A stretch of DNA of 64,000 nucleotides from Rhodospirillaceae bacterium (GTDB taxonomy: Bacteria; Pseudomonadota; Alphaproteobacteria; MPNO01; VGEU01), in contig JBFWQM010000002.1 in NCBI GenBank assembly GCA_050249455.1, positions 8,888 through 72,887 on the forward strand. The letters are read 5' to 3'. The position numbers were made by a program, and so were the translations under genes. Under the pieces are notes generated by a model. That model had not been told where the DNA came from. It was given only the letters and a program-made list of their open reading frames with translations, and did no database searches. Each line of letters opens with the position of its first letter. Within the stretch, counting starts at the first letter, position 1. This document shows positions 9,458-56,451 of the stretch, one piece after another.

Positions 9458-9859
9458 ATGGCCCGTCTGCGTCACTTCGCGATAGTCGTCGGCGACCTGG
9501 AGAAGTCGGCGGCGTTCTACGAGAGCGTGTTCGAGCTCAAGCGCGTCGGGCAGGAGAAGCTCGACTTCGCCGCCGCGATCTACCTCAGCGACGGCGTGAT
9601 CAACCTCGCGCTGCTCAACTATTTCGGCAAGCGCGGATCGGGGCTGGACGACGCGGCGAAGTTCGTCGGCGCGCACCATTTCGGCTTCCAGGTCGACGAC
9701 ATCGCCGACGCCCAGAAGCGCATCGAGGCGGCCGGCGGCACGTTCTTCTTCGACCTCGGCGACGACCCGGAGAAGGAGAACTTCGAGCGCAAGTTCAAGG
9801 ACCCCGACGGGATCATCTTCGACGTCTCGCGCAAGGGCTGGCTCGGCGCGTCGGGCTAG
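9458..9859 (+). CDS. VOC (glyoxalase/bleomycin-resistance/dioxygenase) family protein
   Basis: Internal ATG preceded by AGGAGG. Contains LRHFAIVVGDLEKSAAFYESVF and HHFGFQVDD. Single-domain VOC of about 133 aa. Confidence 0.8.
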   Translation: MARLRHFAIVVGDLEKSAAFYESVFELKRVGQEKLDFAAAIYLSDGVINLALLNYFGKRGSGLDDAAKFVGAHHFGFQVDDIADAQKRIEAAGGTFFFDLGDDPEKENFERKFKDPDGIIFDVSRKGWLGASG

Positions 9860-11244
9860 CGCCGCGGCGTCGCGGCGGCGGGCGCGAAGCGGCGGACCAT
9901 GCCGTCGTACTTGGTCAGCACGTAGACCTCGCCGTCCTCGCCGATGCCGAAGCGCAGGTCGGCCCGCGGCGCGTCGCCCATCAGCGACAGCAGCGTGACC
10001 GCGCGGCCGTCGCGCAGCAGGGTCAGCTCGCCGATCCGCGGGTCGCGGCCGGCGATCAGGTCGGCCGCGGTCGCATGGAAGACGCGGCCGCCGAACAGGT
10101 CGCCGAACACATACTCGCCGGCAAGGTCAGGCACGCGCGCGCCGCGGTAGACGTAGCCGCCGACGATCGACCGGCCTTCGTCGTGGTCGTACTGCGCCAG
10201 CGGGTAGACGAAGCCGTGCCGCGCGTCGTCGGCAGGCAGCGGATACAGCGTCTCCGGGTTGGCGCGGTCGAGCACGAAGCGGCCCTCGCGCAGCGGCCAG
10301 CCGTAGTTGGCGCCGGCGCGGCCCAGGTCGATCTCCTCCACGTTGTCCTCGCCGATGTCGGCGATCAGCATCGCGCCGCTGTGGCCGACGTCCCAGCCGA
10401 AGCGCTGCGGGTTGCGCAGGCCGTAGGCCCAGACCTCGCCCAATGCGCCGCCTTGCGCGGCGAACGGGTTGTCCGGCGGGATCGCGTAGGCGCGGCTGCC
10501 AGCGGCGCGCGGGTCGATGCGCAGGATCTTGCCGAGCGGCGCCGACAGGTCCTGCGCGCGGCTGCCCGACGGCGGGAAGGTGCCGTCGCCGACGCCGACA
10601 TAGAGCATGCCGTAGCCCGCATCGCCCGGCCGCAAGGTCGGGTCGAACGCGAGCTGGCCGACGTTGTGGCCGAAGTTCGGGAACGCGACGCGCAAGAGCT
10701 CGCGCCGCGACGACGGGTCGGCGCGGTCGGGCGCGGCCGGGTCGACCCGCCACTCGGCGACCACGTCGACATGGTTCACCTTGGCCATCAGCGCCTCGCC
10801 AAGCGCGGGCAGCGCGGGGTCCGGGCGCTCCGAGCTGACGGTGTAGAACCGGCCCTCGCCGGGCGCGCCGCGCCGCGCATAGTCGGGGTGAAAGGCGATG
10901 GTCTTGGCGCCCTTCTCGCGGCTGTCGTCGAGGAAGCGGTCGCCGCGCGCGACGGCGAGGTCGAGGAACACGGCGGGGCGCGACATGCCGGGGCGGAAGA
11001 CGTAGATGCGCCCGCGCATGTCGACCACGAACAGCCGGCCCGAGCCGTCGCCGGCGTGGGTCAGGAAGTCGAGGCGCGCGCGTGGCGGGTCGGGGCTCGA
11101 CGGCGGGATGCGCACGACGTCGACCAGCTCCGCCGCCCGGCCGCTCGGCGCGATGCGCTGCGGGATCGGATCCGGCGTGACCGGCGCCTGCGCCGCCGCC
11201 GCGCCGGCCCACAGCGCGAGCGCGAAGACGGCCGCGCGCCTCAT
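9856..11244 (-). CDS. PQQ-dependent sugar (glucose/sorbosone) dehydrogenase-family beta-propeller, secreted
   Basis: Start at MRRAAVFALALWAGAAAAQA (signal peptide). Blocks HAGDGSGRLFVVDMRGRIYV, GVGDGT, ILRIDP, GLRNPQRFGWD and GANYGWPLREG are present. The upstream part of the 743-aa track ORF is not coding in this frame. Confidence 0.85.
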   Translation of the reverse strand: MRRAAVFALALWAGAAAAQAPVTPDPIPQRIAPSGRAAELVDVVRIPPSSPDPPRARLDFLTHAGDGSGRLFVVDMRGRIYVFRPGMSRPAVFLDLAVARGDRFLDDSREKGAKTIAFHPDYARRGAPGEGRFYTVSSERPDPALPALGEALMAKVNHVDVVAEWRVDPAAPDRADPSSRRELLRVAFPNFGHNVGQLAFDPTLRPGDAGYGMLYVGVGDGTFPPSGSRAQDLSAPLGKILRIDPRAAGSRAYAIPPDNPFAAQGGALGEVWAYGLRNPQRFGWDVGHSGAMLIADIGEDNVEEIDLGRAGANYGWPLREGRFVLDRANPETLYPLPADDARHGFVYPLAQYDHDEGRSIVGGYVYRGARVPDLAGEYVFGDLFGGRVFHATAADLIAGRDPRIGELTLLRDGRAVTLLSLMGDAPRADLRFGIGEDGEVYVLTKYDGMVRRFAPAAATPRR

Positions 11245-19193: not shown

Positions 19194-21668
19194 ATGGCGA
19201 CCAAGATCGGGTCAGAGTTCGCAGTCAATTCCACCACCTCGGGCAAACAGGTGCCCGGCGGCGTCACGGCTCTCAGCAACGGCCACTTCGTCGCCGGCTG
19301 GTACGACACCAGCGGCGCCGGTGCCGACACGTCCGTCTCCGCGCTGCGGGCCCAGATATTCGACGGCGACGGCGATGCCGTCGGGAGCGAGTTCCAGCTC
19401 AACACCAGCGCCTCGGGCGAACAGGGGCACGAGCGCGTCACCGCGCTGGGCGACGGCCGTTTCGTCGCCACCTGGTCCGACTGGGGCTCCAACGGCGGCG
19501 GCGATTCCAGCAGCGACGCCGTGCGCGGCCAAGTCTTCGATTCCGACGGCGACAAGGTCGGCAGCGAGTTCCTGATCAATACCACCACGGCGAACAGCCA
19601 GATGTGGCCGCGCGCGACCCTGCTGACCAACGGCAACTTCCTGGTCACCTGGGACGACTACAGCGCCTCGGGCGGCGACACCTCGGGCGTGGCGGTGCGC
19701 GCCCAGATCTTCGATCCCGACGGCGACAAGGTCGGCAGCGAGATCTTGGTCAACGCGACGACGTCTTCGAACCAGCAGCACAGCTACGTGGCGGGCCTGG
19801 CGGGAGGCGGGTTCGTTGCCGTGTACAACGACCTCAGCCAATCCGGCGGCGACATCAGCAGCTACGCCATCCGCGCCCGGCGCTTCGACGGCTCCGGCAG
19901 CGCGGTCGGCAGCGAATTCCTGGTCAATTCCACCACTTCGGGCGCGCAGCAGGAAGCGTCCGTCGCCGGCCTGGCTGGCGGCGGCTTCGTGGTGGTCTGG
20001 GAGGACCATTCGAGCGGCACCTGGTCGCGCGACGTGAAGGGCCGGGTGTTCGACGCATCCGGCAGCGCGGTTGGCGGCGAGTTCACGGTCAACACCACGA
20101 CTACGGACACGCAGAACCATCCGGAGGTCGCGGCGCTGCCGACCGGCGGTTTCGTCGTCGTGTGGGGCGACGTCCATTTCAATACCGGCGTTTCCGAGTA
20201 CGACACCGGCGAGGTGCGCGGGCAGGAATTCGATGCCGACGGCGACAAGGTGGGCTCGGAGTTCCTGGTCAACACCACGACCGCCGGCGTCCAGATGAAC
20301 CCGCACATCGCGGTGTTCGACGACGGCCGCTTCGTCGTCGCATGGCGCGACAACAACGACACCGGGGCGGTCACCGCGGCATGGGACGGGCGCGCCCAGC
20401 TGTTCATCGCGGAGAACGCGGTGACGCCGCCGGAGCTGGTATCGACCGCGCCGGCCGACGACGCCGGCGACGTGGCCGCCGCCGCCGACATCGTGCTGAC
20501 CTTCGACGAGGACGTGATCGCCGGCACCGGGTCGATCACGATCGTCAACGCCGACGACGCCGACGACAGCCGCGTGCTGGCGGCGGACGGCGCGCAGGTG
20601 ACATTCGACGGCGACACCGTGACCCTCGACCCCACGGCGGACCTTCGGATCGGCGAGCGCTACTACGTCCTGGTCGGCGACGAGGCGGTGACCGACCTGC
20701 TCGGCACGCCGTTCGCCGGCATCGCCGATCCGACGACGTTCAATTTCTCGATCGGCCCGGACGAGGCGGAAGTCGTGCCGGGCGAGGACGGCGACACCCA
20801 TCTCGGCACCACCGGGGCCGACACCGTGAGCGCCGGGGCGGGCACGGACACGATCGTCGCCGGCGCAGGGGCCGACTCGCTCGACGCGGGCTCGGGCGAC
20901 GACTCGGTCTCCGCCGGCCCGGGCAACGACACGGTCGCCGGGGGCTCGGGCGACGACTGGATCGACGGCGGCGCCGGCGCGGACTCGATGGACGGCGGCA
21001 GCGGCGCCGACGCCATCGCCGGCGGCAGCGGCAACGACACCATCCTGGGTGGGCTCGGCGACGATTCGATCGACGGCGGCGGCGGCCGGGACTCGATCGC
21101 CGGTGGCAACGGCGCCGACACGATCCTGGGCGGCGAAGGCGACGACACGATCGATGGCGGCGCGGGTGATGATTCCATCATCGGCGCCGCCGGCCAGGAT
21201 ACCGTCGTGGCGGGATCCGGCGACGATTCGGTCGACGGCGACGTCGGCAACGACGACCTCGCCGGCGGCCTGGGCAGCGATGTCCTGATCGGCGGCGACG
21301 GCGATGACACGCTCGACGGCGGCAACGGCGACGACAGCCTGTCCGGCGGTTCGGGCGGCGACGAACTGGTCGGCGGCCTCGGCGCCGATACGCTCAACGG
21401 AGGCGCCGATGACGACGATCTCTACGGCGGCGCCGGCAACGACGTTTTCGTGCTCGCCGCCGGCTGCGGCGACGACACGATCCACGACTACGCGGCCGAC
21501 CGCGACCAGGTCGATCTGTCGGCCTTCGCCTTCGCGGACTTCGCCGCGGTGCTGGCGGCGACCGCTTATGCCGGCGGCGACAGCACGATCGACCTCGGCG
21601 GCGGCCACAGCGTCGTGCTGGTCGGGGTCACATTGAGCGGCGCCGACGCCGACTCGTTCGTCCTTTAG
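19194..21668 (+). CDS. RTX (hemolysin-type calcium-binding) repeat protein with a 7-repeat N-terminal module and an Ig-like (SbsA/Big_5-type) domain
   Basis: No signal peptide. Seven units of about 58 aa begin GSEF.VN(T/S)TT. An Ig-like segment follows (LVSTAPADDAGDVAAAADIVLTFDEDV). Then about 24 GGxGxD nonapeptides. RBS GGGAGG. Confidence 0.9.
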   Translation: MATKIGSEFAVNSTTSGKQVPGGVTALSNGHFVAGWYDTSGAGADTSVSALRAQIFDGDGDAVGSEFQLNTSASGEQGHERVTALGDGRFVATWSDWGSNGGGDSSSDAVRGQVFDSDGDKVGSEFLINTTTANSQMWPRATLLTNGNFLVTWDDYSASGGDTSGVAVRAQIFDPDGDKVGSEILVNATTSSNQQHSYVAGLAGGGFVAVYNDLSQSGGDISSYAIRARRFDGSGSAVGSEFLVNSTTSGAQQEASVAGLAGGGFVVVWEDHSSGTWSRDVKGRVFDASGSAVGGEFTVNTTTTDTQNHPEVAALPTGGFVVVWGDVHFNTGVSEYDTGEVRGQEFDADGDKVGSEFLVNTTTAGVQMNPHIAVFDDGRFVVAWRDNNDTGAVTAAWDGRAQLFIAENAVTPPELVSTAPADDAGDVAAAADIVLTFDEDVIAGTGSITIVNADDADDSRVLAADGAQVTFDGDTVTLDPTADLRIGERYYVLVGDEAVTDLLGTPFAGIADPTTFNFSIGPDEAEVVPGEDGDTHLGTTGADTVSAGAGTDTIVAGAGADSLDAGSGDDSVSAGPGNDTVAGGSGDDWIDGGAGADSMDGGSGADAIAGGSGNDTILGGLGDDSIDGGGGRDSIAGGNGADTILGGEGDDTIDGGAGDDSIIGAAGQDTVVAGSGDDSVDGDVGNDDLAGGLGSDVLIGGDGDDTLDGGNGDDSLSGGSGGDELVGGLGADTLNGGADDDDLYGGAGNDVFVLAAGCGDDTIHDYAADRDQVDLSAFAFADFAAVLAATAYAGGDSTIDLGGGHSVVLVGVTLSGADADSFVL
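19209..20420 (+). repeat. seven tandem ~58-codon repeats (blade-like) in the RTX gene
   Basis: The unit GSEF.VN.TT...Q..P.V..L..G.FVV.W.D......GV.G..FD..G recurs seven times. Confidence 0.75.
20806..21450 (+). repeat. RTX nonapeptide array (~24 GGxGxD units)
   Basis: An uninterrupted run of G-x-G-x-D-x-(I/L/V)-x-G nonamers. Confidence 0.85.
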
Positions 21669-48972: not shown

Positions 48973-50019
48973 ATGTCGATCCCCATCCTTCCCACTACCG
49001 TCGTCGGCAGCTACGTGCAGCCCGACTGGCTGGTCGACCGCGAAAAGCTGATCGGGCGGTCGCCGTCGCGGGTGCGCACCGAGGACATCTGGCGCATCCC
49101 GCCGCCGTGGCTGGAGGCGGCGCAGGACGACGCCACGCTGCTCGCCGTGCGCGACCTGGAGCGCGCGGGGATTGACGTGATCACCGACGGCGAGATCCGG
49201 CGCGAAAGCTATTCGAACCGGTTCGCGACCGCGCTGGGCGGCATCGACAACGCCAATCCGGCGGTGATCCCCGGCCGGTCGGGCCGGCCAAACCTGGTGC
49301 CGCGAATCACCGGCCCGATCCGCCGCACCGGCCCGGTCGAGGTGCGCGACGTGGCGTTCCTGCGCGCCGCGACCGACCGGGCGATCAAGATCACCATCCC
49401 CGGCCCGTTCACCATGCTGCAGCAGGCGGTCAACGAGCACTATCCGGACGAAGCGTCGGCGGCGATGGACTACGCCGCGGCGGTGAACGAGGAGGTCAAG
49501 GCGCTGTTCGCCGCCGGCGCCGACGTGGTGCAGATCGACGAACCCTACGTCCAGGCCAACCCGGACAAGGCGCGCGCCTACGCGGTGCCGGCGATCAACC
49601 GGGCGCTGGAAGGGACGAAGGGTCTCGGCGCCACCTGCGTCCACCTGTGCTTCGGCTACGCCTATGTCGTGTTCGGCAAGCCCGGCGGCTACTCGTTCCT
49701 GCCGGAGCTGGAGGCCTGCGCGGCCGACCAGGTCTCGATCGAGGCGGCGCAGCCGAAGCTCGACCTCGAGATCCTGAAGGCGCTGCCGTCGAAGACCATC
49801 GTGCTCGGCGTCATCGACAACGGCGACCCGGCGGTGGAGACCGCGGAGACGGTGGCGGGCCGCATTCGTGCCGCGCTGAAGGTGCTGCCGGCGGAACGGC
49901 TGGTGCTGGCGCCCGACTGCGGCATGAAGTACCTGCCGCGCGAGACCGCGTTCGGCAAGCTGAAGGCGATGGCGGACGGGGCGAGGATCGTGCGGCGCGA
50001 GATCGGGGCGGCCGGCTGA
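48973..50019 (+). CDS. cobalamin-independent methionine synthase (MetE C-terminal domain)-like Zn-dependent transferase, copy 1
   Basis: Start MSIPILPTTVVGSYVQP after GGAGA. Contains DGEIRRESY, VQIDEP, HLCFGY (HxC) and APDCGMKY, consistent with MetE-type Zn ligands. Confidence 0.8.
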   Translation: MSIPILPTTVVGSYVQPDWLVDREKLIGRSPSRVRTEDIWRIPPPWLEAAQDDATLLAVRDLERAGIDVITDGEIRRESYSNRFATALGGIDNANPAVIPGRSGRPNLVPRITGPIRRTGPVEVRDVAFLRAATDRAIKITIPGPFTMLQQAVNEHYPDEASAAMDYAAAVNEEVKALFAAGADVVQIDEPYVQANPDKARAYAVPAINRALEGTKGLGATCVHLCFGYAYVVFGKPGGYSFLPELEACAADQVSIEAAQPKLDLEILKALPSKTIVLGVIDNGDPAVETAETVAGRIRAALKVLPAERLVLAPDCGMKYLPRETAFGKLKAMADGARIVRREIGAAG

Positions 50020-50032
50020 GCCCGGCCGCCGG

Positions 50033-53000
50033 TCAGACGAACGTCGCGTCGATGGCGAGCACCTGGAGCTGCTGGATGTTCGCCAGCCCGCCGGTCCCCG
50101 CGCCGAAGCCGAGATAGGCGAACTCGGAGTTGCCGAGGTAGCTCGACATCATGTCGGTGGCGAGCGAGCCGCGCGACACGCCGTCGAAGGTGTAGCTCAG
50201 CACCTTCAGCGCCGAGTCCCAGTTGACGACGACCGTGTGCCACAGCCCGTCCTCGATGTTGGGCAGCGCGACCGGCGTGGTGCCCGTCAGGGCGTCGGGG
50301 TCGAGGAAGCCGGTGTGGTCCGCGGCGATGTCGGCGACGCCGATGGTGCGGTTGCCCGCCGGGCTGTTGTAGGTGTCGAACTCGATCGCGAGGCCGTTGC
50401 GGATGCCGGCGATTCCCAGGCCGCTGCCGGCGCCGCCGTTGACCGTCGCGCCGGCCGGATCGTTGTGGATCACGAAGGCCATGCCGTCGGCGGCCCAGTC
50501 GGCGTCGCCGAAGTTGAGCTTGAAGCTGGCGGAGAAGTCCTCGCGGACGTCGACCCGGGCGGAGGTCGTCACCCCGCCAGACTGGCCGGTCGTGGAAGTC
50601 AGGGTGTAGGTGTCCGTCGCCGCGTTGAACGTCGCGCTGCCGTGCGCGACCAGGGTGACGGCGGGCGGCGGCGTGACTGTGACGCTGACGGTGGCCGCGC
50701 GCTGCGCCGCGCCGTCGCTGATCGTGTAGCTGAAGCTGTCGGGACCGGAATAGCCGGCGGCCGGGGTGTAGACGATGAAGTCGTCGGCCGGGTTGGCGGC
50801 GGTGCCGTTGTTGTTGATCGTGGCGGTGCCGTGGCCCGGCGCGGTCACGCCGACGATCGTCAGCGGGTCGTTGTTCGGATCGCTGTCGTTGCCCAGCACG
50901 TTGACCGAGACCGGGGTGCCAGCGGCGGTCGTCGCGCTGTCATTGTTGGCCACCGGCGGGCTGTTGGGCGGCGGCACGGCATTGACGGTGACGTTCACCG
51001 CCCCAACCGTCGAGGCCTTGCCGTCGGAGATCGTGTAGCTGAAGCCGTCGGGGCCCGAGTAGCCGGCGGCCGGGGTGTAGACGATGAAGTCGTCAGCCGG
51101 GTTGGCGGCGGTGCCGTTGTTGTTGATCGCGGCGGTGCCGTGGCCCGGCGTGGTCACGCCGACGATGGTCAGCGGGTCGCCGTTCGCGTCGCTGTCGTTG
51201 GCCAGCACGTTGACCGAGACCGGCGTGCCGGCGACGGTGGCGGCGGTGTCGGTGTTCGCCACCGGCGGCGTATTGGGCGGCGGGGTGATCGTCACGCCGA
51301 CGTTGCCCACCGTCGTGGCGGTGCCGTCGGAGATCGTATAGGTGAAGCCGTCCGGTCCGGAATAGCCGGCCGCCGGCGTGTAGACGACGGTGTCGTCGGC
51401 CGGGTTGGCGGGCGTGCCGTTGTTGTTGATCGTCGCCGTGCCGTGCGCCGGCGCGGAGACCGCGACGATGGTGATCGGGTTGGCGTCGGCATCGCTGTCG
51501 TTGGCGAGCACGTTGACCGTGACCGGCGCGCCGGCGGCGGTCGTCGCGGAGTCGGCGTTGGCGACCGGCGGGGTATTGGGCGCCTGGCCCTGCACGGTCG
51601 CGCTGATGTTGTGGACGCGCAGCTTCTGCACGTTGTCGAGGCCGCCGGTACCGGCCCCGAAGCCGAGATAGGCGAACTCCGAATTGCCGAGGTACTGCGA
51701 CATCATGTCGGTGGCGAGCGAGCCCATCGACACGCCGTCGAAGGTGTAGCTGAGGACCTTGGTGGCGGCGTTCCAGTTGACCGAGACGGCGTGCCACAGG
51801 CCGTCCTCGATGTTCGCCAGCGCGACCGGGGTGGTGCCGGTCAGGCTGTCGGTGTCGAGGAAGCCGGTATGGTCGGCGGCGATGTCGGCGACCCCGATCG
51901 TGCGGTTGCCGGCCGGGCTGTTGTAGGTATCGAACTCGATCGCGAGTCCGTTGGCGAGGCCCGCGATGCCCAGGCCGCTGCCGCCGCCGCCCACGGCGTT
52001 CGCCCCCGCGGCGGCGTTGTGGATCACGAACGCCATTCCGTCGGCGGCCCAGTCGCGGTCGCCGAAGTTCAGGTCGAAGGCGAGGGAGAAGTTCTGCCGC
52101 ACGTCGACGCGCGCGGTGGTCATCACCGTGCCGGCCTGGCCGGTGCTCGACGTCAGGGTGTAGACGCCGGTGCCGCTGTCGAACGTCGTGCTGCCGTTTG
52201 CCTTGAGCGACAGCGTCGCGGGCGGCGGCGCGGTGACCGTCACGCCAACGCTGCCGACGGTCGAGGCCTTGCCGTCGGAGATGGTGTAGGTGAAGCCGTC
52301 CGGCCCGGAATAGCCGGCCGCCGGGGTGTAGACGATGGTGTCGTCGGCCGGGTTTGCGGGGGTGCCGTTGTTGTTGATGACGGCGGTGCCGTGCGCCGGG
52401 GCGGAGACCGCGATGATGGTGATCGGGTCGGCGTTGGCGTCGCTGTCGTTGGCGAGCACGCTCACCGTCACCGGCGTGCCGGCGGCGGTCGACGCGGTGT
52501 CGGGGTTGGCCACGGGCGGGGTGTTGGGCGGCGGCACCGCGTTCACGGTGACGCTGACCGATCCGACCGTCGAGGCCGTCCCGTCGGAGATCGTGTAGGT
52601 GAAGCTGTCGGGTCCGGCGTAGCCGGACGCCGGCGTGTAGACGATGAAGTCGTCGGCGCCGTTTGCGGGCGTGCCGTTGTCGTTGATGGTCGCCGTGCCG
52701 TGCGCGGGGTTCGCCACCGAGATGATGCTGAGCGGGTCGAGGTTCGGGTCGGAATCGTTGGCCAGGACGTTGATGCTGACCGGGGTGTTGGTCGCCGTGC
52801 TCGCGCTGTCGGCGATCGCGACCGGCGCGCCGTTGCCCGGCGTCTCGTTCTCGTAGGTGGCGGCGATGCTGGTCAGCTTCACCATCTGGAGATTGGCGAG
52901 CCCGCCGGTGCCGCCGCCGACGCCGAAATAGGCGAACGACGAGCCGCCCAGGAAGGTGGTGACCAGGTCGGTCGTCAGCGACCCCATCGACACGCCGTCG

Positions 53001-53500
53001 AGGGTGTAGGACAGCGTCTGCGCCGACGCGTCCCAGCTCACCACGACGGAGTGCCACTGGTTGTCCTCGAGGTTGGCCAGCGCGACCGGCGTGGTGCCGG
53101 TCTTGCTGTCGGTGTCGAAGAAGCCGGTATGGTCGGCCGCGATGTCGGCGACGCCGGAAACCCAGTCGATCGGCAGGTTGTTGTAGGTGTCGAACTCGAT
53201 GCCGATGCCGTTCTTGATCAGCATGGTGCCGAGGCCGCTGCCGTCGACGCCCACGACGTTGTAGCCCAGCGGGTCGTTGTGGACGACGAACGCGATGCCG
53301 TCGGCGCCGCTGTCGCTGGCGCCCAGGTAGGCGTCGAACGCGATGGTGAAGTCCTCCCGCACGTCGATGCGGTCGGTGGACGACACCATGCCGGCCTGGT
53401 GGCTTCCGGCGGCGGTGGTCAGCGTGTAGACGTCGTCGTCGGGGTTGTAGAACGCGTTGCCGCGCGCCACCAGGTCGAGCTCGTCGATGTCGGCGATCAG
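50033..53500 (-). repeat. intragenic repeats in the giant gene: ~309-bp Ig-like units (x3 at ~50665-51590, x2 at ~52225-52850) and ~640-bp lectin-like units (x3)
   Basis: Adjacent Ig-unit DNA copies (for example 50760-51065 versus 51070-51375) and lectin copies (50095-50500 versus 51655-52060) align at roughly 85-90% by eye. Confidence 0.75.
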
Positions 53501-55240
53501 CAGCCGCCCCACCTCGCCCGAGAACAGGTTGGCATAGTAGACATAGCCGTCCGGGCCCTGCGTGAAGTGGACCGGGCCATCATTGCTGGAATAGAGGAAG
53601 CGGACCTCGCGGCGGTCGTTGACGTCGATGACGTAGACTTCGCCGTCGACGATGTCGCTGAAGAAGTAGTCGTTGAGGAACTCGGCCGGATAGCGCGAGC
53701 CGGAATAGACCACGTCGCCGCCGACGATCGCCTGAACCTCGTAGCCCGGCGCGCCCTCGGAATGGTTGAAGGCGCGATAGGCCGGCGTGATATCGATCGA
53801 GCCGTTGGCGACCGCGGCATAGAACGCCGGCGCGGTGGAGAGGTTTTGGTAGCTCGGCGTCTTCTCCAGGACGCCGTTGTCGCCGCCTTCGTAGTACGGC
53901 CAGCCGAAGTTGGCGCCCGGCGGCCCGCTCTCGATCTCCTCCCAGGTGTTCCACCCGGTGTTGGTCATGTAGAGGCGGCCGTCGGAGTCGAACCCCATGG
54001 AATAGGAGTTGCGCAGGCCGAGCTGGTAGACCTTGGCGTGGTTCGACGACAGGTCGTCGCCGGGCTGGACGAACGGGTTGTCGGCGAGGCCGAGGCCGGT
54101 GATCGGATCGACGCGCAGGATCTTGCCCGACAGGCTGTCGATCTGCTGCACGCTGTGGCTACGCGGGTCGGCGGTGTTGTAGGAGGTCCCGTCGCCGACC
54201 GAGATGTACAGCATGCCGTCGGGGCCGAACGCGAGCGCGCCGCCGGCATGGCTGAGCGAATCGACCTTGATGTAGTTGTCGGTGTAGACGCCCGTCTGCG
54301 CGTTGTAGCCGGATTCCGCCTGGCTGATGTTGTCGGTGCTGTTGACGGTGCCGCCGCCGCTGATGTCGGAGAGCGAATCGCCGGCGCCGCCGACCAGGAT
54401 CGTCTTGCTGCCCGGCAGCGGCGTCGTGTAGCCGGTCGCCGGGTCGAGCGTCCAGCGCACCACCCAGGCGAAGCGGTTGCCGTCGCCGTCCGGGCCGGCG
54501 TTGCCCGTGCGCCCGGCGGTGTCCGGCGGGTCGACCACGTAAAAGGCGTAGAGGTAGGGGTTGTTCGCGAAGTCGGGGTGGAACGCGATGTCCATCAGGC
54601 CGCGGTCGGCCGCGTGGTTGACCTCCGCGCTCAGGTTCACGAAGTTCGGCAGATAGGTGCCCGTGTCGAGGTCGAAGACCCGCAGCACGCCGTCCTTCTG
54701 GGGAATGAAGACGATCGAGGGGTCGTGCGGCGAGAACTCCAGCCGCATGGGATTCTCGAGCCCGGTGATCAGCGTCTGCTGGGTGACGGCGTAGGGCGAG
54801 CTGAGCGGCGGCGCCGGCGGGTCGACCACCGGATTCTCGTCGTCCAGGATCGCCACGGTCGCCGTGCGCGGGAACAGCAGCGTCGATCCGCTGTCCACGC
54901 TGATGATCGAAAAGGCGATGGTCTCGGTGGGCTCCGACAGGCCGTCGTTGAGGATCTGCACCGGGACCAGGATGCGGTCCTGTCCGGCGGCCATCGTGAC
55001 GCTGCCGTTCCCGGCGACGAAATCCACGCCCTCGGTGGCGCTGTTTCCCGTCACGCCGTAGTTGACGACGGCGGAGCCGCTGAGATCCCCGGTGCGGACC
55101 ACCGGGACGTAGACGATGCCGTTGGCCTCGCCGACGCTGATCTCGCTTTCTTCCAGAAAGACTGTACCGGTCATGACCGGACCATGACCGGAACCGGCAC
55201 GTTCACGCATCACCCGTTCGGGTGATGCGGCAAAAAGCAA
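50033..55240 (-). CDS. giant multidomain surface or secreted protein: Calx-beta, PQQ-sugar-dehydrogenase-like propeller, three L-type-lectin-like domains interleaved with five Ig/cadherin-like domains
   Basis: Calx-beta-like block VVNYGVTGNSATEGVDFV...VQILNDGLSEPTE. Propeller blocks are DIAFHPDF, GDGT, ILRVDP, GLRNSYSMGFD and GANFGWPYYEG. ConA-like blocks (DGIAFVVHN...IEFDTYN...AADHTGF) occur three times. Units of about 103 aa (PPVAN.DSA.T..GTPV.VNVLANDSD...YTISDG) occur five times. No signal peptide. In-frame alternative starts lie at 55210 and 55174. Confidence 0.85.
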   Translation of the reverse strand: MLFAASPERVMRERAGSGHGPVMTGTVFLEESEISVGEANGIVYVPVVRTGDLSGSAVVNYGVTGNSATEGVDFVAGNGSVTMAAGQDRILVPVQILNDGLSEPTETIAFSIISVDSGSTLLFPRTATVAILDDENPVVDPPAPPLSSPYAVTQQTLITGLENPMRLEFSPHDPSIVFIPQKDGVLRVFDLDTGTYLPNFVNLSAEVNHAADRGLMDIAFHPDFANNPYLYAFYVVDPPDTAGRTGNAGPDGDGNRFAWVVRWTLDPATGYTTPLPGSKTILVGGAGDSLSDISGGGTVNSTDNISQAESGYNAQTGVYTDNYIKVDSLSHAGGALAFGPDGMLYISVGDGTSYNTADPRSHSVQQIDSLSGKILRVDPITGLGLADNPFVQPGDDLSSNHAKVYQLGLRNSYSMGFDSDGRLYMTNTGWNTWEEIESGPPGANFGWPYYEGGDNGVLEKTPSYQNLSTAPAFYAAVANGSIDITPAYRAFNHSEGAPGYEVQAIVGGDVVYSGSRYPAEFLNDYFFSDIVDGEVYVIDVNDRREVRFLYSSNDGPVHFTQGPDGYVYYANLFSGEVGRLLIADIDELDLVARGNAFYNPDDDVYTLTTAAGSHQAGMVSSTDRIDVREDFTIAFDAYLGASDSGADGIAFVVHNDPLGYNVVGVDGSGLGTMLIKNGIGIEFDTYNNLPIDWVSGVADIAADHTGFFDTDSKTGTTPVALANLEDNQWHSVVVSWDASAQTLSYTLDGVSMGSLTTDLVTTFLGGSSFAYFGVGGGTGGLANLQMVKLTSIAATYENETPGNGAPVAIADSASTATNTPVSINVLANDSDPNLDPLSIISVANPAHGTATINDNGTPANGADDFIVYTPASGYAGPDSFTYTISDGTASTVGSVSVTVNAVPPPNTPPVANPDTASTAAGTPVTVSVLANDSDANADPITIIAVSAPAHGTAVINNNGTPANPADDTIVYTPAAGYSGPDGFTYTISDGKASTVGSVGVTVTAPPPATLSLKANGSTTFDSGTGVYTLTSSTGQAGTVMTTARVDVRQNFSLAFDLNFGDRDWAADGMAFVIHNAAAGANAVGGGGSGLGIAGLANGLAIEFDTYNSPAGNRTIGVADIAADHTGFLDTDSLTGTTPVALANIEDGLWHAVSVNWNAATKVLSYTFDGVSMGSLATDMMSQYLGNSEFAYLGFGAGTGGLDNVQKLRVHNISATVQGQAPNTPPVANADSATTAAGAPVTVNVLANDSDADANPITIVAVSAPAHGTATINNNGTPANPADDTVVYTPAAGYSGPDGFTYTISDGTATTVGNVGVTITPPPNTPPVANTDTAATVAGTPVSVNVLANDSDANGDPLTIVGVTTPGHGTAAINNNGTAANPADDFIVYTPAAGYSGPDGFSYTISDGKASTVGAVNVTVNAVPPPNSPPVANNDSATTAAGTPVSVNVLGNDSDPNNDPLTIVGVTAPGHGTATINNNGTAANPADDFIVYTPAAGYSGPDSFSYTISDGAAQRAATVSVTVTPPPAVTLVAHGSATFNAATDTYTLTSTTGQSGGVTTSARVDVREDFSASFKLNFGDADWAADGMAFVIHNDPAGATVNGGAGSGLGIAGIRNGLAIEFDTYNSPAGNRTIGVADIAADHTGFLDPDALTGTTPVALPNIEDGLWHTVVVNWDSALKVLSYTFDGVSRGSLATDMMSSYLGNSEFAYLGFGAGTGGLANIQQLQVLAIDATFV

Positions 55241-55413
55241 TCGACTTTCCTGTGAGCAAGTCCCGAATCGGCGACGCGCCGCCGGAGGTCGGGATTTCCC
55301 TTATCCGCCAAGCCTCCGGCGCCGTCGCGCGCGCCAATCCGCCGTCGCGCCTTCCCCGACCATCGCCTATAGTCGGCGCAAACCGATTCGCCGCTTGCCA
55401 GGGAGCCGCCCTC

Positions 55414-56451
55414 ATGCCCGAACTTCTGCCCACCACCGTCGTCGGCAGCTACGTCCAGCCCGACTGGCTGGTCGACCGCGACAATCTGAAGGGCCGTCTG
55501 CCGCCGCGGGTGCGGGCGAAGGAGATGTGGCGCATCCCGGCGCCGTGGCTGGAGGAAGCGCAGGACGACGCGACCCTGCTCGCCATCCGCGACATGGAGC
55601 GGGCGGGGGTGGACATCATCTCCGACGGCGAGGTGCGGCGGGAGAGCTATTCCAACCACTTCGCCACCGCGCTGGACGGCATCGACATCGACCGGCCGGG
55701 CACCGCGATCGACCGCACCGGCCATGCCAACCCCGTGCCTCGCATCGCCGGGCCGATCCGCCGCACCCGCCCGGTGGAGCGGCGCGACGTCGAGTTCCTG
55801 CGCGCCAACACCGACCGGCGGATCAAGATCACCATCCCCGGCCCGTTCACCATGACCCAGCAGGCCCAGAACGACCACTACGCGGACGACGCCGCGGCAG
55901 CGATGGACTATGCGGCGGCGGTCAACGCCGAGATCAGGGACCTGTTCGCCGCCGGCGCCGACGTGGTGCAGCTCGACGAGCCCTACATGCAGGCGCGTCC
56001 GGACAAGGCCAAGACCTACGCCATCAAGGCGATCAACCGGGCGCTGGAGGGGGTCGGCGGCACCACCGCGGTGCACCTCTGCTTCGGCTACGCCCACATC
56101 GTCCACAACCGGCCGTCGACCGGCTACTCGTTCCTGCCTGAGCTGGAGGATTGCGCCGTCCAGCAGGTCTCGATCGAGGCGGCGCAGCCCGACCTCGACG
56201 TCGCGGTGCTGAAGTCGCTGCCGACCAAGACCGTCATCCTCGGCGTCATCAATAACGGCGACCCGGCGGTCGAGACGCCGGAGACGGTCGCCGCGCGCAT
56301 CCGCAAGGCGCTCAAGGCGGTGCCGGCGGAGCGCCTGGTGATCGCGCCGGACTGCGGCATGAAGTACCTGCCGCGGGCGACGGCGTTCGGCAAGCTCAGG
56401 GCGATGGTCGACGGCACCCGCATCGTGCGCCGCGAGCTCGGGGGCGGTTGA
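55414..56451 (+). CDS. MetE C-terminal-domain-like Zn-dependent transferase, copy 2
   Basis: Start MPELLPTTVVGSYVQP. It aligns with copy 1 along its whole length at roughly 70% identity by eye. HLCFGY and APDCGMKY are conserved. Confidence 0.8.
   Translation: MPELLPTTVVGSYVQPDWLVDRDNLKGRLPPRVRAKEMWRIPAPWLEEAQDDATLLAIRDMERAGVDIISDGEVRRESYSNHFATALDGIDIDRPGTAIDRTGHANPVPRIAGPIRRTRPVERRDVEFLRANTDRRIKITIPGPFTMTQQAQNDHYADDAAAAMDYAAAVNAEIRDLFAAGADVVQLDEPYMQARPDKAKTYAIKAINRALEGVGGTTAVHLCFGYAHIVHNRPSTGYSFLPELEDCAVQQVSIEAAQPDLDVAVLKSLPTKTVILGVINNGDPAVETPETVAARIRKALKAVPAERLVIAPDCGMKYLPRATAFGKLRAMVDGTRIVRRELGGG

What the first reader, a model, noticed from the sequence alone, without database searches (positions are those of the whole stretch)
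50033..55240. Gene of ~1,735 codons fusing Calx-beta, a sugar-dehydrogenase-like propeller, three lectin-like domains and five Ig-like domains, with no visible secretion signal
Read from the translation, the domain order is:
1. Calx-beta-like
2. a propeller of about 400 aa with the blocks of PQQ-dependent glucose/sorbosone dehydrogenases (GDGT, ILRVDP, GLRN, GWPYYEG)
3. [ConA/L-type-lectin-like + 2 Ig-like]
4. [lectin-like + 3 Ig-like]
5. lectin-like

The Ig-like and lectin-like units are also repeated at the DNA level, at about 85-90% identity by eye. That implies recent intragenic duplication of a lectin+Ig block of about 1.55 kb and scope for recombinational size variation.

There is no signal peptide, no RTX block and no anchor motif. 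A stand-alone secreted paralogue of the propeller is encoded at 9856-11244. A putative redox propeller joined to multiple carbohydrate-binding modules is an unusual combination.
Basis: partly seen in the sequence, partly recalled or inferred. Interest (0 to 1): 0.6.

Follow-up and report, generated by a model that had tools for sequence, protein, structure and literature searches.

The report
Leaderless multi-lectin exoprotein with dehydrogenase-like propeller
This is a real 1,713-codon gene for a large, probably exported sugar-binding protein (one Calx-beta, one glucose-dehydrogenase-like propeller, three legume-type lectins, five cadherin-like repeats). It belongs to a widespread but experimentally unstudied protein family, so it is sound but fairly ordinary.

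Summary
The gene is real. It lies on the minus strand at 50033-55174 (ATG start, 1,713 aa). The 1,662-aa plus-strand frame is a high-GC shadow.

**Domains.** Profile and fold searches confirm every domain call and the order: Calx-beta, six-bladed sGDH/Asd-type propeller, then lectin+2 Ig, lectin+3 Ig, lectin.

- The repeats are 72-88% identical in DNA (dS 0.30-0.75, exact tracts of 35 nt or less), so they are old, not recent.
- A 99.9%-identical sibling MAG has the same length.
- The fusion is not unusual. Among the 120 best relatives, 53 carry lectin domains (1-5 copies), 40 carry Ig units and 36 carry at least three RTX nonapeptides.

**Secretion.** The "missing" signal is best explained by type I secretion:
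- Gram-negative relatives start directly at Calx-beta.
- They end in an acidic-then-hydrophobic tail, and this gene ends in IDATFV.
- The genome holds two PrtD-type exporters and many RTX proteins.
- Actinobacterial relatives instead carry N-terminal signal peptides.

**Propeller chemistry.** The catalytic His and the Arg-Asn pair are kept. The C-terminal Arg clamp for PQQ appears to be absent, and the genome lacks pqqC and pqqE. PQQ chemistry is therefore uncertain.

The scan has noted similar cyanobacterial architectures before on other DNA.

The parts
50033..55174 (-). Whole gene: 1,713 codons plus stop (TGA/stop at 50033-50035). ATG start at 55174. The maximal ORF extends to a TTG at 55240.
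   Evidence: family N-termini
54836..55168 (-). Calx-beta domain (aa 3-113). It ends in the ILDDEN acidic motif.
   Evidence: Pfam PF03160 64 bits; Foldseek against CALX/NCX CBD1, TM 0.9
53486..54802 (-). Six-bladed sGDH/Asd-type beta-propeller (aa 125-563). His309 lies in SLSHAGG and Arg388-Asn389 in GLRN. Strand A of the last blade reads PVHFTQ (534-539) where canonical enzymes have R-x-R.
   Evidence: PF07995 121 bits; PDB matches 2ISM, 3DAS, 1C9U, 2G8S; AF2 pLDDT 80 with Foldseek TM 0.77-0.81 to Asd structures
52841..53485 (-). L-type lectin domain 1 (aa 564-778). It is the divergent copy, 55% aa identity to L2 and L3.
   Evidence: PF18483; PDB 7ELV E=7e-21
52229..52825 (-). Cadherin-like/tandem-95 units Ig1 and Ig2 (aa 784-982).
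   Evidence: PF17963, PF17892, PF17803 and NF012211
51581..52228 (-). L-type lectin domain 2 (aa 983-1198).
50669..51568 (-). Cadherin-like/tandem-95 units Ig3, Ig4 and Ig5 (aa 1203-1502).
50036..50674 (-). L-type lectin domain 3 (aa 1501-1713). Its last beta-strand is the protein's C-terminus, ...LQVLAIDATFV, the proposed type I secretion tail.
   Evidence: AF2 pLDDT 88.5; Foldseek 7ELV TM 0.87, YwfG, SraP and plant legume lectins; tail statistics
55175..55413 (.). 239-bp divergent intergenic region between the giant gene and the upstream MetE-like gene. It is the presumed promoter region; no sigma-70 consensus was found.

Best explanation
The gene encodes an extracellular, calcium-dependent, glycan-targeting protein. 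It belongs to a large uncharacterised family whose conserved N-terminal module is Calx-beta plus an sGDH/Asd-type six-bladed propeller, and whose C-terminal tails are freely exchanged (RTX, L-type lectins, cadherin-like repeats, PA14 and others).

Proposed mechanism (inferred):
1. The protein has no Sec/Tat leader. It is exported C-terminus first by one of the genome's PrtD/PrsD-type type I secretion systems, which recognise the acidic-then-hydrophobic C-terminal tail (...IDATFV).
2. Outside the cell, Ca2+ folds and stiffens the Calx-beta and cadherin-like units. These act as spacers.
3. The three legume-type lectin domains bind carbohydrate on a polysaccharide or cell surface. Their E-x-D-x-Y ... 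D-x4-H metal site and A-D-G sugar-binding Asp are kept. Targets could be the cell's own matrix or another organism's wall.
4. The highly conserved propeller acts on, or binds, the same glycan. It is most likely a sugar-acting enzyme.

Classical PQQ/Ca2+ sugar-dehydrogenase chemistry is possible (about 0.4) but not established.

Shown: the gene, the domains, the folds, the family pattern, and the presence of T1SS and absence of pqq genes in the genome. Inferred: the export route, calcium dependence, sugar binding and catalysis.
For: - Domains and folds.
- Family: 722 relatives were found. Among the top 120, 53 carry lectins, 40 carry Ig units and 36 carry at least 3 RTX nonapeptides.
- Termini: 83 leaderless members start directly at Calx-beta. 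Of these, 56 end in an acidic-then-hydrophobic tail, against 16.5% for random internal 9-mers. The query tail fits the pattern.
- Own genome: the RTX proteins end alike (DADSFVL, TDAVFGFA, GDVVFAV). There are two PrtD-type ABC exporters above the NCBIfam cut-off, each with an adjacent HlyD-type MFP, and about ten RTX loci.
- Co-occurrence: 4 of 4 Gram-negative genomes carrying a homologue have such an exporter, and the Mycolicibacterium genome has none.
- Actinobacterial homologues carry N-terminal signal-peptide-like segments instead, so the family is extracellular in both envelope types.
- The propeller is 57-69% identical across phyla. His309 and Arg388-Asn389 are invariant and align to sGDH His144 and Arg228-Asn229 (roles from PMC6881789).
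- Repeat units are under purifying selection, dN/dS 0.2-0.5. Five of seven SNPs against the sibling MAG are synonymous.
- Precedents: RapA and PlyA/B cadherin-like lectins and glycanases are exported by the PrsDE T1SS, with substrate genes not always linked to it (PMC5061743). SraP combines an L-lectin with cadherin-like stalks (PMC4047093). Fungal AA12 is a PQQ dehydrogenase joined to a CBM (PMC6881789, PMC4133262).
Against: - No RTX repeats are present.
- No T1SS genes lie next to the gene or within 10 kb of the homologues examined.
- The C-terminal tail is also simply the last strand of lectin 3. The motif is loose, with a 16.5% background rate.
- PQQ chemistry:
  - NCBIfam TIGR03606 scores 63 against a cut-off of 434.
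  - Profile alignments to solved PQQ enzymes and to the genome's own canonical Asd stop after blade 4.
  - The strand that carries Arg406/Arg408 in sGDH reads PVHFTQ here and PVAF in many relatives.
  - pqqC and pqqE were not found in a 93%-complete genome.
Confidence: 0.6

Rival explanations
1. The propeller is a true PQQ/Ca2+ (or PQQ/lanthanide) sugar dehydrogenase. On this reading the protein is a lectin-targeted extracellular glycan oxidase, a bacterial counterpart of fungal AA12 pyranose dehydrogenase with a CBM. It would use PQQ scavenged from the environment.
For: The best fold matches are PQQ enzymes. The catalytic His and the ortho-quinone-binding Arg-Asn are invariant in the family. 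The propeller is strongly conserved. The genome holds five GSDH-family genes without pqq genes, so scavenging would have to be the rule for them all. E. coli Asd works this way (established knowledge).
Against: The C-terminal Arg conserved in sGDH, Asd and AA12 (PMC6881789) has no visible counterpart. The Lys377 equivalent reads Val/Asp, but this rests on a motif-anchored inference. TIGR03606 scores far below its cut-off. HHIP shows that this fold can be non-catalytic.
Confidence: 0.4
2. The propeller is a cofactor-free binding or scaffold module, like the HHIP propeller. The whole protein would then be purely a matrix or adhesion lectin with no catalysis.
For: HHIP is among the fold matches, and it binds ligands and heparin without PQQ. 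The Arg clamp is missing and there is no PQQ synthesis. The tails are all adhesin-type modules.
Against: Arg-Asn and His are invariant across phyla. From recalled sequence (not tested here), HHIP does not seem to keep the Arg-Asn pair. The level of conservation (57-69%) is higher than is usual for adhesin tips.
Confidence: 0.25
3. One reading: this is a contingency-type gene whose lectin+Ig cassette number changes often by recombination between near-identical repeats, giving size-variable surface proteins.
For: Copy number ranges from 1 to 5 among relatives, and copies cluster by protein. Some relatives carry identical cassettes (P0005). Two clustered differences against the sibling MAG make its Ig3 match Ig2, which could be a short conversion tract.
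Against: In this gene the units differ by 12-28% in DNA, dS is at least 0.30, and the longest shared tract is 35 nt. Two independent MAGs have the same length and no indel.
Confidence: 0.1
4. The protein is a LapA-type surface-retained adhesin. Its N-terminal module plugs the outer-membrane channel and is released by a LapG-like protease.
For: Two Peptidase_C93 (LapG-like) genes are in the genome. Type I export is C-terminus first, so a large N-terminal fold could stall in the channel (established knowledge of LapA/MpIBP).
Against: The first 23 residues of the called protein hold no Ala-Ala pair. There are no RTX repeats. Short family members (Calx-beta + propeller + RTX, about 960 aa) look like secreted RTX enzymes rather than adhesins.
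Confidence: 0.1
5. The gene is not functional: a cytoplasmic relic, an unexpressed gene or an assembly artefact of a repeat-rich region.
For: Both sources are short-read MAGs. The copy in the sister genus is broken across contig ends. No expression data are available.
Against: There is a 5.1-kb open frame in two independent assemblies with mostly synonymous differences. Repeat units are under purifying selection. GC3 is 95%, like the neighbouring genes.
Confidence: 0.05

Closest known systems
Soluble PQQ-dependent sugar dehydrogenases: A. calcoaceticus sGDH (1C9U), E. coli Asd/YliI (2G8S), S. coelicolor Adh (3DAS), T. thermophilus 2ISM, P. aerophilum 3A9G
   Same: Six-bladed propeller fold (TM 0.77-0.81 normalised to the target). 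The blocks HxGG..FGPDG.LY..GDG, ILR.DP, G.RN and GWP are shared. The catalytic His and the Arg-Asn pair are kept.
   Different: These enzymes are periplasmic or secreted through a signal peptide and have a single domain. Here blades 5-6 do not align to them, the R-x-R clamp is not seen, there is an extra insertion of about 40 aa before the His, and Calx-beta, lectin and cadherin-like modules are fused on.
Fungal AA12 pyranose dehydrogenase CcPDH (AA8 cytochrome + AA12 PQQ propeller + CBM1)
   Same: The concept of a six-bladed PQQ-type propeller tethered to a carbohydrate-binding module in an extracellular protein (PMC4133262, PMC6881789).
   Different: There is no cytochrome domain here. The binding modules are L-type lectins rather than CBM1. 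AA12 membership and its nine PQQ residues were not tested here. Export is by a different route.
Rhizobium leguminosarum Rap lectins and PlyA/PlyB glycanases (PrsDE type I secretion substrates with Ra/cadherin-like domains)
   Same: They are leaderless, contain cadherin-like domains, are calcium-dependent and bind or process polysaccharide. Their genes are often unlinked to the exporter (PMC5061743, PMC9298526).
   Different: Rap proteins are small, with 1-2 CHDL domains, and in them the cadherin-like domain is itself the lectin. They have no propeller and no L-type lectin. Homology of the Ig units to Ra/CHDL was not tested.
Staphylococcus aureus SraP binding region, Lactococcus YwfG and M. jannaschii legume-lectin domain (7ELV)
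   Same: The prokaryotic L-type lectin fold (Foldseek hits 1-9). SraP also combines the lectin with cadherin-like stalk modules (PMC4047093).
   Different: SraP and YwfG are Gram-positive, wall-anchored proteins with signal peptides and one lectin each. Here there are three lectins, no anchor and an N-terminal propeller.
RTX exoenzymes and RTX adhesins (serralysin and lipase 2Z8X type; LapA/MpIBP)
   Same: No leader, an N-terminal functional domain and calcium-binding beta-sandwich repeats. About a third of the close family members carry true RTX blocks and the same kind of C-terminal tail.
   Different: This protein itself has no nonapeptide repeats and no recognisable LapG site.

Membership tests
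Glucose/sorbosone dehydrogenase superfamily (Pfam PF07995, sGDH/Asd fold) | Profile match above the gathering score | tested here: met
   121.2 bits against a cut-off of 25
Glucose/sorbosone dehydrogenase superfamily (Pfam PF07995, sGDH/Asd fold) | Six-bladed beta-propeller fold like the solved members | tested here: met
   AF2 pLDDT 80, pTM 0.78. Foldseek gives 1C9U E=8e-20, and 3DAS, 7CDY, 3A9G and 2G8S at TM 0.77-0.81
PQQ-dependent soluble sugar dehydrogenases (functional class; NCBIfam TIGR03606) | Curated family score | tested here: not met
   63 bits against a cut-off of 434.55
PQQ-dependent soluble sugar dehydrogenases (functional class; NCBIfam TIGR03606) | Catalytic base His (sGDH His144) and ortho-quinone ligands Arg228/Asn229 | tested here: met
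   SLSHAGG aligns to SKDHQSG and GLRN aligns to GHRN. His309, Arg388 and Asn389 are invariant in 23 family members. Residue roles are taken from PMC6881789
PQQ-dependent soluble sugar dehydrogenases (functional class; NCBIfam TIGR03606) | C-terminal Arg clamp for the PQQ carboxylates (sGDH Arg406/Arg408; conserved in Asd and AA12) and Lys377 | tested here: inconclusive
   Profile and HH alignments stop after blade 4. A motif-anchored reading gives GPVHFTQGPDG against GRFRDAVVGPDD in the genome's own Asd, with no Arg, and the His is Ala in many relatives. An alternative clamp through the invariant Arg467/His471 cannot be excluded
PQQ-dependent soluble sugar dehydrogenases (functional class; NCBIfam TIGR03606) | Cofactor supply and dye-linked sugar oxidation | not testable with these tools
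   pqqE and pqqC are not found in the 93%-complete genome. Scavenging is possible. Enzyme activity needs bench work
Type I secretion substrates (RTX type) | No N-terminal Sec/Tat signal peptide | tested here: met
   The N-terminus MTGTVFLEESEISVGE has no basic or hydrophobic leader. The 22 upstream in-frame codons have none either. This is by reading; no predictor was available
Type I secretion substrates (RTX type) | GGxGxDxUx nonapeptide repeats (PF00353) | tested here: not met
   No PF00353 hit and 0 GGxGxD motifs. 36 of 120 relatives have at least 3
Type I secretion substrates (RTX type) | C-terminal secretion tail (acidic residue followed by hydrophobic residues at the extreme end) | tested here: met
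   The protein ends in ...IDATFV. 56 of 83 leaderless relatives fit the pattern against a 16.5% background. The genome's own RTX proteins end in DADSFVL, TDAVFGFA and GDVVFAV. The motif is loose
Type I secretion substrates (RTX type) | Cognate ABC exporter plus MFP in the genome, or linked to the gene | tested here: inconclusive
   Present in the genome: two PrtD-type ABC genes at 761 and 674 bits (cut-off 510) with adjacent HlyD-type genes. Not linked: none in the window flanks or within 10 kb of homologues
L-type (legume) lectin domain (PF18483 / PF00139) | Profile match and beta-sandwich fold | tested here: met
   PF18483 386 bits, three stretches. PDB 7ELV E=7e-21. The model has pLDDT 88.5, with Foldseek 7ELV at TM 0.87, then YwfG, SraP and plant lectins
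L-type (legume) lectin domain (PF18483 / PF00139) | Mn/Ca ligands (E-x-D-x-Y-x-N ... D-x4-H) and the sugar-binding Asp in A-D-G | tested here: inconclusive
   By reading, all three copies have (G/A)ADG(I/M)AF, EFDTYN(N/S) and ADIAADHTG. The mapping to ConA-type ligands is from recalled knowledge. The Asn position is shifted in L2 and L3
Tandem-95 / Big_9 / bacterial cadherin-like repeats | Curated profile matches, in tandem units of about 100 aa | tested here: met
   NF012211 215 bits (cut-off 90), PF17963 327 bits, PF17892 250 bits, five units
Calx-beta domain | Profile match and fold | tested here: met
   PF03160 64 bits (cut-off 27). Foldseek CALX CBD1 at TM 0.9, rmsd 1.3-1.5
LapA-type retained RTX adhesins | N-terminal retention module with a LapG di-alanine site, plus RTX repeats | tested here: not met
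   No Ala-Ala near the N-terminus and no RTX. LapG-like genes do exist in the genome
CAZy AA12 | The nine PQQ-binding residues of CcPDH, or an AA12 profile match | not tested
   No AA12 profile or CcPDH alignment was available. CcPDH did not appear among the sequence hits

The most novel reading that the evidence does not exclude
The Calx-beta plus sGDH-like propeller module defines a widespread family of exported glycan-modifying enzymes. Members occur in Alphaproteobacteria, Planctomycetota, Gemmatimonas, cyanobacteria and mycobacteria. They are sent out by type I secretion in diderms and by signal peptides in actinobacteria, and they are aimed at their substrate by swappable lectin, cadherin-like, PA14 or RTX tails. 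Their cofactor pocket differs from all solved PQQ enzymes: the C-terminal Arg clamp is absent and an invariant Arg467/His471 is present instead. The family may therefore use PQQ in a new binding mode, another cofactor, or a different chemistry on extracellular polysaccharide.
Probability: 0.25. Interest if true: 0.6.

Novelty: new variant of a known kind. Interest (0 to 1): 0.33.

Why it matters
If the family is what it appears to be, bacteria from several phyla export a conserved dehydrogenase-like propeller aimed at glycans by interchangeable binding modules. That would be a bacterial parallel to the fungal AA12 enzymes used in biomass oxidation. It would also be a candidate player in biofilm-matrix or cell-wall remodelling.

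For this particular gene the value is mostly as a clean, full-length, three-lectin example that could be expressed and tested. Nothing about it is anomalous once its relatives are seen.

Tried and rejected
1. The plus-strand 1,662-aa ORF was rejected as a shadow frame.

2. I tried three ways to place the PQQ carboxylate-binding residues, and none reached blades 5-6. These were a family profile against PDB, a profile of the C-terminal 128 residues against PDB at E up to 10, which gave only weak virginiamycin B lyase blade hits, and hhalign against the genome's own canonical Asd. What remains is a motif-anchored reading.

3. I looked for T1SS genes beside the gene and beside 80 homologous loci by tblastn. 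There was only one weak ABC hit, so there is no linkage.

4. A promoter and terminator scan found no promoter-like site. The 'terminators' are antisense artefacts inside the Ig repeats.

I therefore made no read-level check of repeat number, population variants or expression.

6. I could not name the organism. Relatives of the protein suggest an alphaproteobacterium, but this is not shown.

7. Literature searches for Calx-beta with sorbosone dehydrogenase, and for the dehydrogenase with RTX, lectin or T1SS terms, found no paper on this family.

8. Recent horizontal transfer was considered because the gene is patchy: 0 of 59 genomes in the other families of the order carry it. Composition gives no support, with GC3 at 95% like the neighbours.
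Full report
**The gene**

The window is 70% GC. At this locus it carries two long antiparallel ORFs. The minus-strand frame 50033-55240 gives a normal multidomain protein. The plus-strand frame 50237-55225 gives an Arg/Gly/Val/Asp-rich string with no family matches, so it is a shadow frame.

The gene called for this window (P0123) and its sibling-MAG counterpart P0003 (the 90%-identity cluster representative) both begin at the ATG at 55174 (MTGTVFLEE..., 1,713 aa). More than eighty relatives begin with the same M[ST]G.[IV]FLE..E.SV.E string. I therefore take 50033-55174 as the gene.

The gene is monocistronic. It sits between two plus-strand MetE-like genes. The downstream one is convergent, with only 13 bp between the stops. 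The upstream one is divergent, across 239 bp.

**Domains**

Pfam and NCBIfam give:
- Calx-beta: 64 bits.
- GSDH: 121 bits.
- Three L-type lectin domains: PF18483, 386 bits.
- Five tandem-95 / Big_9 / cadherin-like units: NF012211, 215 bits against a cut-off of 90.

An AlphaFold2 model of residues 1-563 has pLDDT 80 and pTM 0.78. Its best matches are sGDH 1C9U and the Asd-type enzymes 3DAS, 7CDY, 3A9G and 2G8S (TM 0.77-0.81 on the target), followed by HHIP. Its first 113 residues match CALX/NCX CBD1 at TM 0.9.

A model of Ig5-L3 has pLDDT 88.5. It matches the M. jannaschii legume-lectin domain 7ELV (TM 0.87), the mannose-binding YwfG, SraP and plant legume lectins. The domain calls are therefore right.

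**Repeats**

| Comparison | DNA identity |
|---|---|
| Ig units, overall range | 75-88% |
| Ig2/Ig3 (best pair) | 87.8% |
| Ig4/Ig5 | 86.5% |
| L2/L3 | 81% |
| L1 against L2 or L3 | 72% |
| Ig-Ig-lectin block | 80% |

Synonymous divergence is 0.30-0.75. dN/dS is 0.2-0.5, except about 0.9 for L1 against L2/L3. The longest exact shared tracts are 13-35 nt. The units are therefore old duplicates under purifying selection, not recent ones.

A second MAG (GCA_050187845.1, contig JBFWXC010000004.1) carries the same gene in the same context. It is 99.91% identical over 11.1 kb, with ten substitutions, no indel and the same 1,713 codons. Seven substitutions fall in the gene and five of those are synonymous. 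The two non-synonymous ones lie 14 nt apart in Ig3 and make the sibling's Ig3 match Ig2. That is either a short conversion tract or two G-to-A changes.

At the family level the picture differs. Relatives have 1-5 lectin domains. In a maximum-likelihood tree of 56 lectin domains, the copies group by protein in nearly every multi-lectin relative, often with near-zero branch lengths. Cassette duplication therefore recurs in the family (or copies are homogenised), but this gene is a quiescent example.

**Family**

A search seeded on the N-terminal 500 residues found 722 relatives. The N-terminal Calx-beta+propeller module is 57-69% identical across them, while the tails vary.

Among the top 120:
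- 53 have L-type lectins.
- 40 have Ig units.
- 36 have at least three RTX nonapeptides.
- 15 share this gene's lectin+Ig, no-RTX type.

Named genomes with the full module include Hyphomicrobiaceae, Hyphomicrobium, Hyphomonadaceae, Rhizobiaceae, Gemmatimonas, Planctomycetota, Nostoc and Mycolicibacterium.

Within the window's own order the gene is patchy. It is present in the one other genome of its family, where it is fragmented at contig ends. It was not found in 59 genomes of four other families. GC3 is 95%, the same as the neighbours.

The fusion of this propeller to lectins is therefore common, not unusual. Earlier notes of this scan describe similar cyanobacterial architectures on other DNA. 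I did not test those notes.

**Secretion**

No possible start gives a leader, and there are no RTX repeats. The family pattern is nevertheless informative.

- Diderm members start directly at Calx-beta.
- 56 of 83 end in an acidic residue followed by hydrophobic residues (SEIVVIA, DDFFV, DDFRFV and so on), against 16.5% for random internal 9-mers. This protein ends in IDATFV.
- The genome's own RTX proteins end alike. One lies in this window at 19194-21668 and ends in DADSFVL.
- The genome has two PrtD-type ABC exporters above the curated cut-off, each beside a HlyD-type gene.
- Four of four diderm genomes with a homologue also have such an exporter, and the Mycolicibacterium genome has none.
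- Actinobacterial homologues instead carry an N-terminal hydrophobic signal-like segment and a linker of about 300 aa.

Together this says the family is extracellular, and that diderm members most likely leave by type I secretion.

Against this, no exporter gene is linked. The tail is also the last strand of lectin 3. The precedent of the Rhizobium PrsDE system shows that neither objection is disqualifying. PrsDE exports cadherin-like lectins and glycanases, and the genes for several of those substrates are unlinked to it (PMC5061743).

**Propeller chemistry**

sGDH His144 (the catalytic base) and Arg228/Asn229 (the quinone ligands; roles from PMC6881789) align to His309 and Arg388/Asn389. These three residues are invariant in 23 family members.

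The C-terminal blades do not align to any solved PQQ enzyme or to the genome's own canonical Asd. Anchoring on the GPDG motif, the innermost strand of the last blade reads PVHFTQ (a confident strand in the model). The genome's Asd has RFRDAVV at that place, and many relatives have PVAF. The Arg clamp shared by sGDH, Asd and AA12 therefore seems to be missing.

NCBIfam's PQQ-dehydrogenase model scores 63 against a cut-off of 434. pqqE and pqqC are absent from the 93%-complete genome, which nevertheless has five GSDH-family genes.

I rate classical PQQ chemistry at about 0.4, another catalytic activity at about 0.3, and a non-catalytic binding role at about 0.25.

**Lectins and spacers**

By reading, all three lectins keep the (G/A)ADG(I/M)AF, EFDTYN and ADIAADHTG blocks. 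From general knowledge of legume lectins, these correspond to the sugar-binding Asp and the Mn/Ca ligands. The cadherin-like units carry LANDSD.N.DP acidic motifs typical of calcium-stiffened stalks. SraP is a solved example of an L-lectin held out on cadherin-like modules (PMC4047093).

**Verdict**

The interpretation needs three corrections: the repeats are old, the fusion is common, and there is a plausible type I export signal. The protein is a new, clean member of an uncharacterised but widespread family. The open question of interest is what the conserved propeller does outside the cell.

No paper on the family was found.

Noticed in passing
window 50237-55225 (+): A 1,662-aa open frame runs antiparallel to the real gene. 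It is R/G/V/D-rich with no family hits. It is a shadow ORF typical of 70% GC DNA and could mislead gene callers.
   Followed up: yes
window 48973-50019 (+) and 55414-56451 (+): Two MetE-like (Meth_synt_2) paralogues, about 80% identical in DNA, bracket the giant gene on the opposite strand. The arrangement is identical in the sibling MAG. The giant gene may have been inserted into, or been flanked by, a tandem duplication.
   Followed up: partly
window 19194-21668 (+): An 824-aa leaderless RTX protein. It has about eight N-terminal 'GSEF.VNTTT.G.Q' repeats and at least 15 nonapeptides, and it ends in DADSFVL. It is a probable type I substrate in the same window.
   Followed up: partly
window 9856-11244 (-): A stand-alone GSDH-family protein with a signal-peptide-like start (MRRAAVFALALWAGAAAAQA). 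It is only 28% identical to the giant gene's propeller. Like that propeller, it lacks a clear R-x-R before its GEDG motif.
   Followed up: partly
window 51289 and 51303 (Ig3), compared with L094: The only two non-synonymous differences from the sibling MAG lie 14 nt apart. They make the sibling's Ig3 identical to Ig2 over that stretch. This is either a short gene-conversion tract or two G-to-A changes.
   Followed up: partly
proteins P0013, P0015, P0016, P0019, P0040, P0042 and others (Mycolicibacterium and other actinobacterial relatives): These relatives carry an N-terminal VGRVGALAVALGIGGA-type signal segment, or a recurring W(A/V)xLGWxRR motif, plus a linker of about 300 aa before Calx-beta. 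This is a different export solution for the same module.
   Followed up: no
P0005 and P0004 (metagenomic relatives, 59-63% identical): These relatives hold three to four Ig-Ig-lectin cassettes that are identical or nearly identical at the protein level, so they have undergone very recent cassette amplification, unlike this gene.
   Followed up: partly
G001:C86 and G001:C167 (L096-L098): The only other genome of the same family has the gene split over contig ends (63-69% identity). The likely cause is assembly breaks in the repeats, so its architecture could not be read.
   Followed up: no
own genome, whole (G000): There are five GSDH-family genes but no pqqC or pqqE (the genome is 93% complete). 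If any of the five is a quinoprotein, the organism must scavenge PQQ.
   Followed up: partly
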